Part shown: positions 38,301-44,300 of the stretch, piece by piece
How the letters are laid out: each line of letters starts with the position of its first letter
How positions within the stretch are numbered: position 1 is the stretch's first letter
Assembly (NCBI RefSeq): GCF_009914755.1
Contig: NC_060925.1
DNA length: 64,000 nt
Strand: one strand, 5' to 3'
Source of the DNA: the human T2T-CHM13v2.0 reference genome, Homo sapiens
Program-made: the position numbers and the translations under genes
The notes under the pieces: generated by a model
Seen by the model: only the letters and a program-made list of their open reading frames with translations
What the model was told of the DNA's origin: nothing
Databases searched by the model: none

Positions 38301-41300
38301 TTTGCTTGCTTTATCACTCGCCTGCCCATCTAACCATCCCTCTACCCACCCATATTTTTAAAAATATGCTCCTTTTTACTTCATTGGCTCTTCACAATTT
38401 GCAGCAACCTGCTTTCATTTCATTTTTACCATATCCCTTGAAGAAAATGGTGCAGGTATGAGCATTTCAATCTTTTAGATAAGATTCACTGAAAAATTCA
38501 GAAATGTACCCAAAGTCACAAGGCTAATTCCTCTACTGGAACAGAAACCCAGAAGATCTGTTTCACAGATTGTTGTGGCTGCTTTTAAGGGAGACAGTGT
38601 TTGGGGAATGGAGGAATTAATGACTGTGCTAGGCAATTGACCTAGAAGAAGGAGGACAAGAATCTCATTTCATTTCTCAGCATCTGACATTTATGCCCAA
38701 TGTATATTCACAGAGTGAAAGAAAGAAGGCTAGCTCAAGGAGTCTAGCTGCTCCTCCAAGTCCCTCTTCTATCTCTGCAGGACTAAGAGCCTCTGGAAAG
38801 GACTCAGCCCCAACAGTGGTGTCAGGGATCCTAGGGGGTTCCGTGACTCTCCCCCTAAACATCTCAGTAGACACAGAGATTGAGAACGTCATCTGGATTG
38901 GTCCCAAAAATGCTCTTGCTTTCGCACGTCCCAAAGAAAATGTAACCATTATGGTCAAAAGCTACCTGGGCCGACTAGACATCACCAAGTGGAGTTACTC
39001 CCTGTGCATCAGCAATCTGACTCTGAATGATGCAGGATCCTACAAAGCCCAGATAAACCAAAGGAATTTTGAAGTCACCACTGAGGAGGAATTCACCCTG
39101 TTCGTCTATGGTGAGTTCCAGAGAGCTTCTGTGTTTTGATCTTTTCTTTTTTTTATTTGTGCAAATTTATGGGGTATGTGTGAAATTTTGTTATATGTAT
39201 ATAGTGCATACTGATCAAGTCAGAGTTTTCAGTGTGTCTGCTGCCTGAGTACAATATATTCCTGTTAAGTATAGTCACCCTACTCTGCTATCAAAAATTG
39301 AATTGATTTTCTCTATCTTACTGTATGTTTGTACCCTTTAACCCACTTCTCTTCATCATCCCCCCACCACCCACTCCCCACACTCACCCTTCTCAGTCTC
39401 TGCTATCTATCTTTCCACCATCCACCTCCACATGATCAAAATTTTTAGTACCAACATATAAGTGAGAACATGCGATATGTGTCTTTTTGTGCCTAGCTTA
39501 TTTAACTTAAGATAATGACCTCCAGTTTCAGCCACATTGCTGCAAAAGACATGATTTCATTCTTTTTTATGGATTTTTAAATTGTTTAAATATATTTAGG
39601 GGGTACAAGTGTAGATTTATTGCATGCACATATTGCATGCTGGGGAAGTCTGGGCTTTTAGTGCACCCATCACCCAAAGAGTGACCATTGTACTCAATAG
39701 ATAATTTTTCAGCCCTCACTCCTCTCCCACCCTCCTACCTCTTGTAGGCTCCACTATCCATTATTCCTACTCTGTATGTCCATGTGTACCCATTGCTTCC
39801 ACTTATAGGTGAGAACGTGTGGTATTTTACTTTCTGTTTCTGAGTTATTTCAGCTAGGATAATGGCCTCCAGTTTCATCCATGGTGCTGCAAAAGACATG
39901 ACTTCATTCTTTTGTGGCTGATTAGTATTCCATGATGTGTATAAATACATGTATGTATGTGTATACTGCATTTTCTTTATCCATTCTTCCGCTAAGGGAC
40001 ACAGATTAATTCTATATCTTTGCTATTGAGAATAGTGCTGCAATAAACATACAAATGCAGGTATTCCTTGCATATATCAATTTCTTTTCTTTTCCTTTGG
40101 GTAGATATCCAGTAGTGGTATTACTGGATCAAATGCTAATTAAATGTTTAGTTTTTTGAGAAATCTTCATATTGTTTTGCATAGTGGCTGTACTGGTTTC
40201 CATCCCCACCAAGAGTGTCTAAGATTTCCCCTTTTCTCCACATCCTGCCAACATGTGGTTAGTGTTTAAATAACAGCCATTCTGACTGGAGTGAGATAAT
40301 ATCTCATTGTGATTTTGATTTGTATTTCTCAGATAATTGGTGATATTGAGCATTTTTAATATATCTGTTGGTCATGTGTATGTCTTCTTTTGAGAAATGT
40401 CTGTATCCTTTGCCCACTTTTTAATAGAATTATTTGTTTTTTCTTGTTGAGTTATTTGAGTTCCTTGTATGTTCTGGATATTACTTCCCTGTCAGATGAA
40501 TAGTTTACAAATATATCTGCCATTCAACTCGTTGTCTCTTCACTCTGTTGATTATTTCTTTTGCTGTGCAAAAGCTTGTTAGTTTAAATCCCGTTTGTCT
40601 ATTTTTGTTTTTGTTACCTGTGCTTTTGAGGTCTTAGTCATAAATTTATTTGTCCAGACCAATGTCCAGGAGAGTTTTCCCTAGGTTTTCTTCTAGTATT
40701 TTTATAGTTTCAGGTCTTACATTCAAGTCTTTTAACTGATTTTGAGGAGGTTTTTTATATGATGAGAAATAGGGGTTCAACTTCATTCTTCTGCATGTGA
40801 CTATTCAATTTTCCCAGCACCATTTATTGAAAAGTTGTCCGTCCACGTCATCGAGGGTGACCACCGCACACTCCTGGAGGGCAGCGGCCTGGAGTCCATC
40901 ATCAGCACCCTGGCTGAGCCACGTGTGAGCGTGCGGGAGGGCTAGGCCCTCGCCCCCACCTGCCACTGGAGACCGCTCCGCCATCCCCACCTCACCGCCG
41001 CGCAGCAGAGCTGGAAGGGTCCTGCCGATGGGACCCTGCCAGGCCCAGTGCCACTGCCCCCCGAGGCTGCTAGACGTGGGCGTTAGGCGTGTCCCACCCA
41101 CCCGCCGCCTCCCATGGCACGTCGGGAACACCGGAGCCGCCAACTTGGAGACTCCTGGTCTGTGAAGAGCCGCTGACGCCCGCAGGAACCGGGCTGGGCC
41201 TTGTGTGCCAGTGGGGTTTGTGCTTGGTCTTTCTCCGCTTGGATTTGCTTATTTATTGCATTGCTGGTAGAGACTCCCAAGCCTGTCCACCCTGCAAAGA

Positions 41301-44300
41301 CTCCTCGGGCAGCATGCGGGTCCCGCACACTGCACCCATTTCCTGGATGTCCCCTGCAGGCGCGGGAGGCCATCCGGGCCTGCTGGCTGCGGCCCCCTCT
41401 CAGCCAGGCCTGGCTCAGCCCACTGCGTGGGAGGTCACCGGCCACTCCCCGAGGAGCTGGGATCCCCGGGATGCAGGCCCACAGTGCGGGGCTGCACCCA
41501 TGATGCGGAGCTGGCCTCCAACCCTGCGGGCCGCGCCAGGCACCAACTCAGTGTTTGTCAGTGTTTGTTTTTCCAAGAAATGGTTCAAATTGCTGCTCAG
41601 ATTTTTAAATTTACTGTAGCTGCCAGTGTACACGTGTGGACCCCATTTTATTTTTACACCAATTTGGTGAAAATGCTGCTTTCCTCAGCCTCCCCACAAT
41701 TAAACTGCACATGGTCTCTAAAAAAATAAAAATAAATAAATAAATAAATAAATAAAAAGTATCTTTTCTCCCCAGTGTAAGTTTTTGTTGGATTTGTCAA
41801 AGGTCAATTGGCTATAAACCTGTGGCTTTATTTCTGTGTTCTCTATTCTGTTCCATTGGTCTATGTGTCTATTTTTATAACACCATGCTGTTTTGGTTGC
41901 TATAGCCATATACAGTATACTGAAGTCGAGTAATGTGATGCCTCTAGCTTTGTTCTTTTTGCTTAGCATTGCTATGACTATTCATGGTCTTTTGTGCTTC
42001 CGTATATATTTTAGGATTTTTTTTTCTGGCCAGGCACAGTGATTCATGCCCGTAATCCCAACACTTTGGGAGGCTGAGGCAGGCAGATCTCTTGAGGTCA
42101 GGAGTTCGAGACCAGCCTGGCTAACATGGTGAAACCCCGTCTATACTAAAAATACAAAAATTAGACAGGGGTGGTGATGGGCACCTGTAATCCCAGCTAC
42201 TCGGAAGTCTGAGGCGGGAGAATCACTTTAATCTGGGAGGCAGAGGTTGCAGTGAGCCAAGATCACGCCACTGAATGCCAGCCTGGGTGACAAAGTGAAA
42301 ACCGTGTCTAAAAAAAATTTTTTTTTTTTTAAAAAGGATTGTTTTTCTAATCTGAGAAGAATAAGGTTGGTATTTTGATACGGATTGCCTTGAATCTGTA
42401 GATTCTTTGGGCAATATGGTCATTTTAACAATATTGATTCTTCTGGTCCATGAGCATGGGATATTTCTCCATTTGTTTGTGTCATCTATGATTTTTTCAT
42501 CAGTGTTTTGTAGTTTGCCTTGTAGAGATCTTTCACCTCCTTGGTTATACTTGTTCCTAGGGTTTTTTAATAGCTATTATAAACGGGATTCACTTCTTTA
42601 TTTCTTTCTTGATTAAATAATTATTGGTGTATAGAAATGCTACTGATTTTTGTACACTGATTTCTATCCTGCAACTTTAATGAATTCATTTATCAAATCT
42701 AAGAGTTTTTTGGTGGAGTCTTTAGGTTTCTCTAGTTATAAGATCATATCCTCAGGCTAAGCGTGGTGGCTCACACCTGTAATCCTAGCACTTTGGGAGA
42801 CCAAGGCAGGTGGATTGCTTGAGCTCGGAAGTTCAAGACCAGCCTGAGCAACATGGCAAAACCCCATCTCTACAAAAAAATACAAAAATTAGCTGGGCAT
42901 GGTGGCATGTGCCTGTAGTATCAGCTACTCTGGAGGCTGAGGTGGGAGGATTGCTTGAATCCCAGGAGGCTGAGGCTGCAGTGAGTCATGACTATACCAC
43001 TGCACTACAGCCTGGGTGAAAAAATGAGACCCTGTCTCAAAAAAAAAATTACATCATCAGCAAAGAGGAACAATTTGTCTTTCTCTTTTACACTTTGAAT
43101 GTTTTTTATTTCTTTATTTTGCCTAATTTCTCTGAGTAGAACTTTCAGTACTATGTTGAATAAAAGTAGTGAAAGTGGGTATCCTTATCTTGTTCAAGTT
43201 CTCAGAAGAAAGGCTTTCAGCTTTTCCCCATTTGGTACAATGCTAATTGTGGAATTGTCATATATGGGCTTTACTATTTTGAGGTATATTCCTTCTATGC
43301 CTAGTTTGTTGAGAAATTTTTTCAGGAAGGGATTTGGACTGTATCAAGTGCTCTTTCTATAACCATTGAGATGATCATATGGTTTTTATCCTTCAGTCTA
43401 TTGATGTGATGTATCACATTTATTGATTTACATACGTTAAACCATCCTTGCATCCCTGGGATAAATCCCACTTGATCATGTATTATCTTTTTGATATGCT
43501 GTTGGATTCTGTTTGCTAGTATTTTGCTGAGGATTGTTGCATCTATGTTCATCAGGAATATTGGCCTGTAGTTTTCTTTTTGTTGTTGTGTCCTTGTCTG
43601 ATTTTGGTATTAGCATAATGCTGGCCTCATCGAATGAGTTAAGGAAAATTCCCCCCACTTTGATTTTTAAGAATAGTTTTAGGAGGATTGATATTAGTTA
43701 TTATTTGTATATTTGGTAGAATTTGGCTGTGACTCCATCAGTCTCGGGCTTTTCTCTGTTGGGAGACTTTTTTATTACAGATTAATTTCACTACTTGTCG
43801 TTGGTGTCTGTTCAGATTTTCTATTTTTTACTGATTCAGTCTTGGTAGGTTGTATGTTTCTAGGAATTTATCCATTTTCTCTAGGCTTTTCAGTTTGTCA
43901 GAGTATAGTTGTTCATAATAGTCTCTGACGGTCTTTTGGATTTTGGTCTTTTGTATTCCTGTAATGTCAGTTGTAATGTCTCCACTTTTTCTGATTTTGT
44001 TTATTTGGGTCTTCTTTCTTCTTTTCTTAATTAGCCTAGCTAGCAGGTTATTAATTTTGTCTGTCTTTTCAAAGAGCTAACTTTTTCTTTCATTGATTCT
44101 TTGCATTTTTTTAGTCCCTACTTCATCGAGTTTTGCTCTGATATTTATTATTTCTTTTCTTCTACTAATTTTGGGCTTAGTTTGTTCTTGCTTTTCTAGC
44201 TCCTTAAAGTTCATTGTTACATTATTAATTTGTGATCTTTATACATTTTTCATGTAGGCATTTATTTCTATAAACTTCCCTCAGCACTGCTTTTGCTGTA

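What the first reader, a model, noticed from the sequence alone, without database searches (positions are those of the whole stretch)
40818..41758. Exonised FASN retrocopy creates an in-frame LY9(IgV)-FASN chimeric, probably secreted isoform
Seen: LY9 exon 2 ends in phase 1. An acceptor (ttcaattttcccag|, 40817/8) from the antisense L1 leads into L1-derived APFIEKL and then, in frame, into [39 protein letters not shown] 3'UTR, ATTAAA (41699) and an A-tail follow. The product is 151+42 = 193 aa: leader plus IgV1, with no TM. Known: this peptide is the FASN thioesterase C-terminus, including the catalytic His of GDH, and the N-terminal IgV mediates LY9 homophilic binding. Compared with FASN as I recall it, the copy has a frame-preserving 12-bp deletion. 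I also recall a 193-aa LY9 isoform in RefSeq (unverified). Inference: three sources (immune receptor, L1 splice site, metabolic-enzyme retrocopy) build a lineage-specific soluble CD229 decoy or ligand.
Basis: partly seen in the sequence, partly recalled or inferred. Interest (0 to 1): 0.88.

Follow-up and report, generated by a model that had tools for sequence, protein, structure and literature searches.

The report
LY9 end exon from FASN retrocopy
An old processed copy of the tail end of the fatty-acid-synthase mRNA, lodged in a backwards L1 element inside the immune-receptor gene LY9, serves as an already catalogued alternative last exon that would make a short receptor without a membrane anchor, whose function is untested.

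Summary
Splicing LY9 exon 2 (phase 1) to 40818 gives a 193-aa ORF with its stop at 40943-40945.

Anatomy:
- The last 36 codons, the stop, the 3'UTR and an A-tail are a 5'-truncated processed copy of the FASN mRNA 3' end. It is 82% identical over 881 nt to chr17.
- The copy sits in an antisense L1, at ORF2p residues 931/932, with a 6-bp target duplication.
- The L1 supplies the acceptor and codons APFIEK.

Prior knowledge:
- RefSeq lists exon 40818-41774.
- An identical 193-aa "lymphocyte antigen 9 [Homo sapiens]" is in NCBI/UniRef.
- Two colobine monkeys have predicted LY9 isoforms with the same junction, so the insertion predates the human/Old World monkey split.
- I found no paper describing the FASN/L1 origin.

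Function:
- One colobine tail is frameshifted and the other lacks GDHRTLL, so the tail looks weakly constrained.
- The FASN piece is about 14% of the thioesterase domain and cannot be an enzyme.
- The RefSeq exon end fits an AATAAA in the decayed A-tail, not only FASN's ATTAAA.
- Secretion and a decoy role remain untested.

Verdict: a new member of a known kind, of modest interest.

The parts
35219..35342 (+). LY9 coding part of exon 1 (start codon, leader)
   Evidence: Hub gene table; 124 nt, used in the spliced ORF
38781..39110 (+). LY9 exon 2: the rest of the leader and the whole N-terminal IgV domain. It ends in phase 1 with donor G|GTGAGT.
   Evidence: Pfam V-set matches residues 52-150 of the 193-aa product, 27.1 bits against a cut-off of 26.
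40790..40817 (+). Polypyrimidine tract and AG acceptor (TTCAATTTTCCCAG|) supplied by the antisense L1. It is the reverse complement of the ORF2p codons for the conserved W-C-W-E-N stretch.
   Evidence: The minus strand reads LFNKWCWEN, identical to human ORF2p 931-939.
40646..40834 (-). L1 ORF2 remnant upstream of the insertion (ORF2p residues 931-992; one TGA stop, read as X)
   Evidence: E 2.1e-20 to 8c8j_A and 4e-20 to 8uw3_A. Also.
40818..40834 (+). L1-derived part of the alternative exon: it completes the Ala codon and encodes PFIEK
40829..40834 (+). Left copy of the target-site duplication (GAAAAG)
   Evidence: The ORF2p 'LF' codons (931-932) are present on both sides of the insert
40835..40942 (+). 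FASN-derived coding part: 36 codons corresponding to FASN V2472-G2511, minus 4 residues. Blast-detectable homology begins at 40838.
   Evidence: V at the first position in colobines. Residue numbers are recalled and counted back from the 2511-aa human protein.
40943..40945 (+). TAG stop codon, FASN's own stop, lying in the terminal exon
40946..41718 (+). FASN 3'UTR-derived 3'UTR (GC 62%, CpG o/e 0.55, against 37% and 0.16 in the flanks)
41699..41704 (+). ATTAAA, FASN's own poly(A) signal
41720..41753 (+). Decayed non-templated poly(A) tail, now (AAAT)n-like, holding seven AATAAA hexamers (the last at 41751-41756)
   Evidence: It is absent from the FASN locus.
41754..41759 (+). Right copy of the target-site duplication (AAAAAG)
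41760..41774 (+). L1-derived end of the annotated exon. The CA at 41773-41774 lies 18 nt after the last AATAAA and is followed by the GT/T-rich GTGTAAGTTTTTGTTGG, so it is the probable cleavage site.
   Evidence: Hub table (exon 40818-41774). Use of this site is inferred.
41754..41981 (-). L1 ORF2 remnant downstream of the insertion (ORF2p residues 859-932)
   Evidence: E 7.3e-22 to 8uw3_A

Best explanation
The region is an alternative terminal exon of LY9 built from two retroelement events. Shown: an L1 lay antisense in LY9 intron 2. A polyadenylated FASN mRNA was then reverse-transcribed into it at ORF2 codons 931/932. It went in sense to LY9 and 5'-truncated, keeping only the last 36 codons and the 3'UTR, and it left a 6-bp target duplication and an A-tail. 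The antisense L1, 20 nt upstream, offers a pyrimidine tract and an AG. This is the reverse complement of the conserved ORF2p WCWEN codons. Splicing from the phase-1 end of exon 2 reads six L1 codons and then runs, by a 1-in-3 chance of phase, into FASN's own frame and stop. Inferred: the transcript ends at FASN's ATTAAA site or, as the RefSeq exon end at 41774 suggests, at a CA 18 nt after an AATAAA that arose in the decayed A-tail. The stop lies in the last exon, so the mRNA should escape nonsense-mediated decay. The product is the leader plus IgV1 plus a 42-aa tail, with no anchor. It is catalogued (NCBI/UniRef, RefSeq exon) and is at least catarrhine in age. Most likely it is a minor intronic-polyadenylation isoform. 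Its FASN-derived tail is a passenger with no enzymatic or conserved role. Any activity would come from the free IgV1 or from diverting transcripts away from full-length CD229.
For: Spliced ORF of 193 aa, stop at 40943, identical to the database protein P0002. FASN origin: PDB hits at E 8.8e-14; 82% identity over 881 nt to chr17, E 5e-264; alignment; the chr17 locus translates to the FASN C-terminus. Processed origin: the A-tail is absent at the parent locus, the copy is 5'-truncated, and LF of ORF2p is duplicated on both flanks. A 95-aa ORF (P0001) from a 1438-nt assembled contig crosses the exon 2/alternative-exon junction. Genomic DNA separates those exons by 1.7 kb, so the contig derives from spliced RNA. 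The same junction is in two colobine predicted proteins. Tail as passenger: Colobus is frameshifted after AEP into the frame that reads TCERAGGLG in human. Piliocolobus lacks GDHRTLL. The thioesterase match is 15.6 bits against a 26.4 cut-off, covering profile positions 192-222 of 226. No anchor: the maximum Kyte-Doolittle 19-residue mean in residues 140-193 is 1.1. Poly(A): seven AATAAA hexamers, the last at 41751, and the exon end at 41774 (hub table).
Against: No expression level, 3'-end or protein data could be examined, so 'minor isoform' is an assumption. The coding part differs from FASN at only 4-5 of 105-108 sites, against a mean of 16.5 per 105 nt in the 3'UTR. None of 659 overlapping UTR windows had 5 or fewer differences; the minimum was 7. 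About 9.5 differences are expected if the copy evolved neutrally, giving Poisson P = 0.04-0.09. Three of the four substitutions are synonymous. This hints at some constraint on the human-lineage ORF. The human/Colobus tail differs at 2 of 35 residues, no more than the IgV at 11 of 110. The colobine proteins are gene predictions, so their indels could be model or assembly errors. The target duplication is short (6 bp) and its left limit is hidden in the A-rich tail.
Confidence: 0.7

Rival explanations
1. One reading: the chimera is a functional, selected, secreted CD229 IgV1 decoy or ligand. It would block or trigger homophilic CD229 contacts, and the FASN-derived tail would be retained because it contributes stability, oligomerisation or trafficking.
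For: The leader and IgV1 are complete (Pfam V-set 52-150) and three N-glycosylation sequons are kept. There is no hydrophobic anchor. The stop lies in the terminal exon. CD229 binds itself through its N-terminal domain; this comes from the title of Romero 2005, seen in the reference list of PMC9101303. The exon is at least 25-30 Myr old and is still spliceable and open in human and Piliocolobus. The coding part is less diverged than the 3'UTR. An owl monkey cytomegalovirus carries a captured LY9 homologue said to keep LY9 binding (passages of PMC5199112). This shows that free LY9-like domains can be biologically used.
Against: There is a frameshift in Colobus and a 7-aa deletion in Piliocolobus. 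ORF survival is not improbable by chance: by my estimate the chance of no stop and no frameshift over this time is roughly 0.4, and 2 of the 10 indel events between the copy and FASN are multiples of three. No paper in the searched library mentions the isoform or its peptide. The tail is a torn-out beta-strand and helix of an alpha/beta hydrolase and may misfold.
Confidence: 0.12
2. The exon matters at the RNA level only. Regulated use of the intronic splice acceptor and poly(A) site ends transcripts after exon 2 and so tunes the amount of full-length CD229. The protein product would be irrelevant or degraded.
For: The site has a textbook composite terminal-exon architecture: an acceptor, then AATAAA, 18 nt, CA and a GT-rich downstream element. 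Retrocopies and intronic L1s are reported to impose cryptic acceptors and premature polyadenylation on host genes (review PMC5408686, passages). RefSeq lists a 'silencer' at 40799-41048 over the exon start (hub table).
Against: There is no expression or regulation data. One paper holds both 'LY9' and 'intronic polyadenylation' (search listing only); it concerns spleen development and was not read.
Confidence: 0.15
3. The annotated exon 40818-41774 is an internal exon spliced onward from a donor at 41774/41775. The stop at 40943 would then be premature and the transcript a nonsense-mediated-decay target.
For: 41775-41776 is GT, and a good GTAAGT lies two bases further on. The hub table does not say whether the exon is terminal.
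Against: The donor context CCA|GTGTAA is weak, and the strong GTAAGT would give an exon end at 41776, not 41774. The end at a CA 18 nt after AATAAA fits cleavage. A 193-aa protein is deposited for this structure.
Confidence: 0.04
4. The FASN-like piece is a DNA-level duplication of the chr17 3' end, not a retrocopy.
For: The copy lies wholly within FASN's last exon, which begins 15 nt upstream of the homology. Intron loss therefore cannot be demonstrated.
Against: Homology stops about 20 nt after ATTAAA and is followed by an A-tail that the chr17 locus lacks. There is a target duplication in the interrupted L1. Further 5'-truncated, A-tailed FASN 3' fragments exist on chr5 and chr20.
Confidence: 0.01

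Closest known systems
Retrocopy-derived alternative 3' exons of host genes (Baertsch et al. [quoted passage not shown] Examples given in the passages seen are PPP1R14B/LIMK2 and CENTG2/CTGLF1; SCP2, HLA-F and KIAA0415 are the antisense examples.
   Same: An intronic retrocopy in the sense orientation of the host. It is spliced to upstream host exons, read in the parent's frame, and gives a shorter alternative C-terminus and 3'UTR.
   Different: Only 36 parental codons are used, so no parental domain is transferred. The acceptor is not in the retrocopy but in a third element, an antisense L1. Neither LY9 nor FASN appears in the main text of that paper. Its supplements could not be opened.
TRIM5-CypA (owl monkey), the classic retrocopy-host fusion
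   Same: An L1-mediated retrocopy of a housekeeping gene in an immune gene creates an in-frame chimeric protein (as described in review PMC5408686).
   Different: There a whole functional cyclophilin domain is fused and the function is proven. Here only about 14% of a thioesterase domain is fused, with no evidence of function.
Exonisation and cryptic polyadenylation caused by intronic L1s and nested genes (Kaer et al. 2011, cited in PMC5408686; seen only as a reference and one passage)
   Same: Intronic L1 sequence supplies a cryptic acceptor, and premature polyadenylation truncates the host transcript.
   Different: Here the poly(A) signals come from the nested FASN copy and its tail, not from the L1.
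Soluble forms of SLAM-family receptors (serum sCD229 in PMC9101303; secreted SLAMF1 and soluble SLAMF7 are recalled, not checked here)
   Same: A SLAM-family ectodomain without an anchor, with the potential to engage the homophilic receptor.
   Different: The sCD229 ELISA of PMC9101303 captures through Ig domain 2 and detects through domain 1. The measured sCD229 therefore cannot be this IgV1-only isoform. Its origin, shedding or splicing, is not stated in the passages seen.

Membership tests
L1-mediated processed retrocopy (processed pseudogene fragment) | Homology to the mature mRNA of a parent gene located elsewhere | tested here: met
   82% identity over 881 nt to G000:C17 (FASN 3' end), E 5e-264. 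The parent locus translates to the FASN C-terminus.
L1-mediated processed retrocopy (processed pseudogene fragment) | Absence of the parent's introns | not testable with these tools
   The copy starts 15 nt inside FASN's last exon, so no exon junction is covered.
L1-mediated processed retrocopy (processed pseudogene fragment) | Non-templated poly(A) tail at the mRNA's cleavage site | tested here: met
   An A-rich tail runs from 41720, about 20 nt after ATTAAA. The chr17 locus continues CACCACCGTCC instead.
L1-mediated processed retrocopy (processed pseudogene fragment) | Target-site duplication flanking insert plus tail | tested here: met
   GAAAAG at 40829-34 and AAAAAG at 41754-59. The ORF2p LF codons 931-932 are read on both flanks. 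The duplication is short and 5 of its 6 bases are identical.
Retrocopy-derived alternative 3' exon of a host gene | Spliced to upstream host exons in real transcripts | tested here: met
   RefSeq exon 40818-41774 (hub table). The deposited 193-aa human protein is identical to the spliced ORF. P0001, from a 1438-nt contig, crosses the junction. Abundance was not tested.
Retrocopy-derived alternative 3' exon of a host gene | Own stop codon and polyadenylation signal within the exon | tested here: met
   TAG at 40943, ATTAAA at 41699 and seven AATAAA at 41725-41751. Which signal is used was not testable.
Fatty acid synthase thioesterase domain (Pfam PF00975) | Complete alpha/beta-hydrolase domain reaching the family's gathering score | tested here: not met
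   15.6 bits against a cut-off of 26.4. Only profile positions 192-222 of 226 are covered.
Fatty acid synthase thioesterase domain (Pfam PF00975) | Ser-His-Asp catalytic triad (the residue identities are recalled) | tested here: not met
   Only the GDH histidine stretch is present. The 36 FASN-derived residues cannot include the upstream Ser and Asp.
Secreted (anchorless) SLAM-family receptor isoform | Leader plus ligand-binding IgV, with no transmembrane or GPI signal | tested here: met
   V-set at residues 52-150. The hydrophobic maximum is at residues 25-43, in the leader. The maximum Kyte-Doolittle 19-residue mean in residues 140-193 is 1.1.
Secreted (anchorless) SLAM-family receptor isoform | Protein actually secreted and able to bind CD229 | not testable with these tools
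   This needs expression and binding assays. The structure prediction was uninformative (pLDDT 32.5).

The most novel reading that the evidence does not exclude
The LY9-L1-FASN exon is a domesticated exon shared by anthropoid primates. It makes lymphocytes and plasma cells release a free CD229 IgV1 domain. This would be a natural homophilic-interaction modulator that current sCD229 assays cannot see, because they need Ig domain 2. It could act as a sink for IgV1-directed anti-CD229 antibodies or CAR-T cells in myeloma. The unusually low divergence of the 36 FASN codons in the human lineage would then reflect selection on the tail.
Probability: 0.1. Interest if true: 0.6.

Novelty: new member of a known kind. 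Interest (0 to 1): 0.33.

Why it matters
The case is a clean three-part example of new coding sequence arising from retroelements. An antisense L1 provides the acceptor, a fragment of a housekeeping mRNA provides the frame, stop and 3'UTR, and its decayed A-tail provides a canonical AATAAA. The result sits in a gene that is a therapeutic target in myeloma. If the isoform is made in quantity, it would be an IgV1-only soluble CD229 that the published ELISA design cannot detect. If it is not, the exon is one more annotated by-product of intronic retroelements. Either way, the FASN fragment is not listed as a pseudogene in the gene table supplied. I found no paper naming it.

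Tried and rejected
- Structure prediction of the 193-aa protein on the 5-row alignment A1 gave mean pLDDT 32.5 and pTM 0.19. It is uninformative and was not searched against fold libraries.
- A second homologue search with the frameshifted Colobus tail (P0003 residues 150-267) returned only P0003 and P0002, 2 of 295 candidates. 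It found no further species.
- Literature searches that found nothing on this exon:
  - LY9/FASN/retrocopy: 60 papers with 2 or more terms, 15 listed, none on the locus.
  - FASN/processed pseudogene/chimeric transcript/retrocopies: 27 papers, 15 listed, FASN count 0 in all those listed.
  - LY9 plus intronic polyadenylation: 1 paper, not read.
  - RefSeq accessions recalled from memory: 0 papers.
  - LY9 plus exonization: 1 paper, about an Alu in the normal 3'UTR and viral capture.
  - The tail tryptic peptide: 0 papers.
  - A search on retrocopy/alternative last exon terms listed nothing specific.
- PMC7290577 main text has no LY9 or FASN.
Lists of retrocopy-host chimeras in the supplements of PMC2584115 and PMC7290577 may name this case and could not be seen.
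- I rejected 'the catalytic His matters', because only a domain fragment is present.
- I rejected a GPI anchor or transmembrane segment in the tail on hydropathy.
- A selection test on the 105 coding nucleotides is only suggestive (P = 0.04-0.09, post hoc). I do not count it as evidence of function.
- No primate genomes are held, so dating rests on two predicted colobine proteins and on divergence.

Full report
**Observation.**
- LY9 coding exon 1 (35219-35342, 124 nt) plus exon 2 (38781-39110, 330 nt) leaves phase 1. The donor is G|GTGAGT.
- At 40817/40818 there is TTCAATTTTCCCAG|CA.
- Joining the three pieces gives a 193-aa ORF that ends ...[48 protein letters not shown], with TAG at 40943-40945.
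- The other two frames of the exon hit stops within about 40 codons.

**The FASN piece.**
- A phmmer search of the 41-aa tail against PDB chains returned 10 sequences, all fatty acid synthase. The best was 2px6_A residues 276-316 at E 8.8e-14. It showed one substitution and a 4-residue gap, IIHS in the printed alignment.
- In the window's own genome, 40838-41720 matches C17:82945495-82946417 (minus strand) at 82% identity over query 1-881 of 883 nt, E 5e-264. By blastn that is 81.8% over 936 columns.
- That chr17 locus translates to [45 protein letters not shown], which is the PDB FASN C-terminus.
- The copy starts 15 nt inside FASN's last exon, so loss of introns cannot be shown.
- Homology ends about 20 nt after ATTAAA. 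In the window an A-rich tail follows, whereas chr17 continues CACCACCGTCC.
- Together with the 5' truncation and the target duplication described below, this makes it an L1-mediated processed copy of the FASN mRNA 3' end.
- The 12-bp deletion is real and in frame. Of the 10 indel events between the copy and FASN, 2 are multiples of three.

**The L1.**
- Read on the minus strand, 41981->41754 encodes L1 ORF2p residues 859-932, ending ...WGEKILF (E 7.3e-22).
- Read on the minus strand, 40837->40646 encodes residues 931-992, beginning LFNKWCWEN, with one TGA read as X (E about 2-4e-20).
- The L1 is therefore antisense to LY9 and continuous across the insert.
- The two LF codons are present on both sides. 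This is a 6-bp target duplication: GAAAAG at 40829-40834 and AAAAAG at 41754-41759.
- The acceptor TTTTCCCAG|CACCA is the reverse complement of the codons for the conserved ORF2p stretch WCWEN. Any antisense L1 that retains this part carries the same latent acceptor (inference).
- The first tail residues APFIEK are L1-derived.
- The next codon is TTG (Leu) in human, GTA (Val) in FASN, and Val in both colobine proteins. It therefore belongs to the FASN copy. The junction shares a few bases (AAAG) between the L1 target and the FASN mRNA, so its exact position is ambiguous by about 4 nt.

**3' end.**
- FASN's ATTAAA is at 41699. The decayed tail (41720-41753) holds seven AATAAA hexamers, the last at 41751-41756.
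- The RefSeq exon ends at 41774 (hub table). That is a CA 18 nt after the last hexamer, followed by the GT/T-rich GTGTAAGTTTTTGTTGG.
- I infer that this is a cleavage site driven by an AATAAA born from the A-tail, with the downstream element supplied by the L1. The FASN site near 41720 may be used as well.
- An onward splice from 41774 is unlikely. The donor context is weak, and the good GTAAGT two bases further on would give a different exon end.

**Already catalogued, and older than human.**
- A search of the 41-aa tail among longer proteins scored 78 candidates, of which 58 had E <= 0.001. Four carry the LY9-L1-FASN junction. The rest are FASN fragments.
- P0002: 193 aa, 'lymphocyte antigen 9 [Homo sapiens]' in NCBI/UniRef. 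It is identical to my spliced ORF.
- P0001: 95 aa, from a 1438-nt assembled contig. It crosses the junction and so derives from spliced RNA.
- P0003: 267 aa, 'PREDICTED: T-lymphocyte surface antigen Ly-9 isoform X4 [Colobus angolensis palliatus]'.
- P0057: 180 aa, Piliocolobus tephrosceles.
- Both monkeys have ...FIYAPFIEKVSVHVIE... and share the 12-bp deletion (SIISTLAEP).
- The insertion, the deletion and the splice pattern therefore predate the human/Old World monkey split, roughly 25-30 Myr ago (recalled date).
- Divergence suggests an older origin. In a three-way comparison with a second FASN 3'UTR retrocopy on chr5, I excluded a 70-nt block where present-day FASN is the odd one out. The chr1 copy then has 63 unique differences in 570 sites, against 5 for FASN and 12 for chr5. 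With the block included the counts are 68, 27 and 12 of 639.

**Is the tail conserved?** The evidence is mixed.
- Against constraint:
  - Colobus is frameshifted after AEP. It reads on in the frame that gives [12 protein letters not shown] in human.
  - Piliocolobus lacks GDHRTLL, including the 'catalytic' His.
  - Both are gene predictions, so model or assembly error is possible.
- For some constraint:
  - The 105-108 coding nucleotides differ from FASN at only 4-5 sites (3 synonymous, 1 non-synonymous, depending on gap placement). The 3'UTR has 123 differences in 763 sites.
  - The mean per 105-nt UTR window is 16.5, the minimum is 7, and 0 of 659 overlapping windows have 5 or fewer.
  - Part of this is constraint on the parent side. 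I expect about 9.5 differences, giving Poisson P = 0.04-0.09. This is post hoc and weak.
- Human and Colobus differ at 2 of 35 tail residues, 11 of 110 IgV residues and 2 of 41 leader residues.

**What the product is.**
- Pfam finds a V-set domain at residues 52-150 (27.1 bits, cut-off 26). It finds only a sub-threshold thioesterase fragment at 152-183, profile positions 192-222 of 226, at 15.6 bits against 26.4. The tail cannot be an enzyme.
- There is no hydrophobic segment after the leader. The maximum 19-residue Kyte-Doolittle mean in residues 140-193 is 1.1.
- Three N-glycosylation sequons lie in the IgV.
- The stop is in the last exon, so the mRNA should escape NMD.
- The protein is thus predicted to enter the secretory pathway as IgV1 plus 42 residues. 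Whether it folds and is secreted is untested, and the AlphaFold run was useless (pLDDT 32.5).
- CD229 is a homophilic receptor that binds through its N-terminal domain (PMC9101303 introduction and its reference 4, passages).
- The published serum sCD229 ELISA captures through Ig domain 2 and detects through domain 1 (PMC9101303 section 2.10, passages). It cannot see this isoform.

**Comparison and novelty.**
- Retrocopies that give host genes a new, mostly in-frame 3' exon are a described class. See Baertsch 2008, PMC2584115, passages, and the review PMC5408686, passages.
- Intronic L1s that impose cryptic acceptors and polyadenylation are also described (a reference).
- The case is a new member of that kind, with the twist that three elements cooperate.
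- The isoform itself is already in RefSeq, NCBI and UniRef.
- I found no paper that names the FASN or L1 origin.

**Verdict.** The functional decoy story is possible but unsupported. Interest is modest.

Noticed in passing
L003 (G000:C5:11868973-11869626), L004 (G000:C20:50990032-50990228), L005 (G000:C12:12788861-12788982): There are further 5'-truncated fragments of the FASN 3'UTR elsewhere in the genome. The chr5 and chr20 copies carry A-rich tails. The chr5 copy is much younger-looking than the LY9 copy, with 12 unique differences in 570 sites against 63. The chr20 copy ends early, at the equivalent of about window 41600, before its tail.
   Followed up: partly
window 41465-41545 versus L002 (FASN 3'UTR): In this roughly 70-nt block the chr1, chr5 and chr20 retrocopies agree with each other while present-day FASN differs: 22 FASN-unique sites of 69, against 5 of 570 elsewhere. 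The FASN 3'UTR seems to have been rewritten here, by an indel or rearrangement, after the copies were made. The retrocopies would then preserve the older state.
   Followed up: partly
window 40799-41048: RefSeq lists a 'silencer' functional element exactly over the L1 acceptor, the FASN-derived coding part and the start of the GC-rich 3'UTR piece (hub table). The retrocopy is a GC 62%, CpG o/e 0.55 island in a GC 37%, CpG o/e 0.16 intron.
   Followed up: no
window 39735-43343, minus strand: ORF fragments typical of L1 ORF2 continue on both sides of the insertion, for example 39735-40022 and 43005-43343. They are interrupted by masked repeats at 42002-42353 and 42756-43187 (hub table). The host L1 appears to be several kb long and itself invaded by later elements. 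Only 40646-40837 and 41754-41981 were checked against ORF2p.
   Followed up: partly
P0057 (Piliocolobus tephrosceles, 180 aa): Besides the GDHRTLL gap in the tail, this predicted protein lacks the six residues VIWIGP (human 79-84; the flanking N78 aligns to H) inside the IgV domain. This looks like a gene-model or assembly artefact and lowers trust in its tail deletion.
   Followed up: no
PMC5199112 (passages): An owl monkey cytomegalovirus gene (A33) is a captured LY9 homologue said to keep LY9 binding. The same paper notes ESTs that extend the normal LY9 3'UTR into a downstream Alu. This is independent evidence that free LY9-like domains are used biologically, but it is unrelated to this exon.
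   Followed up: no
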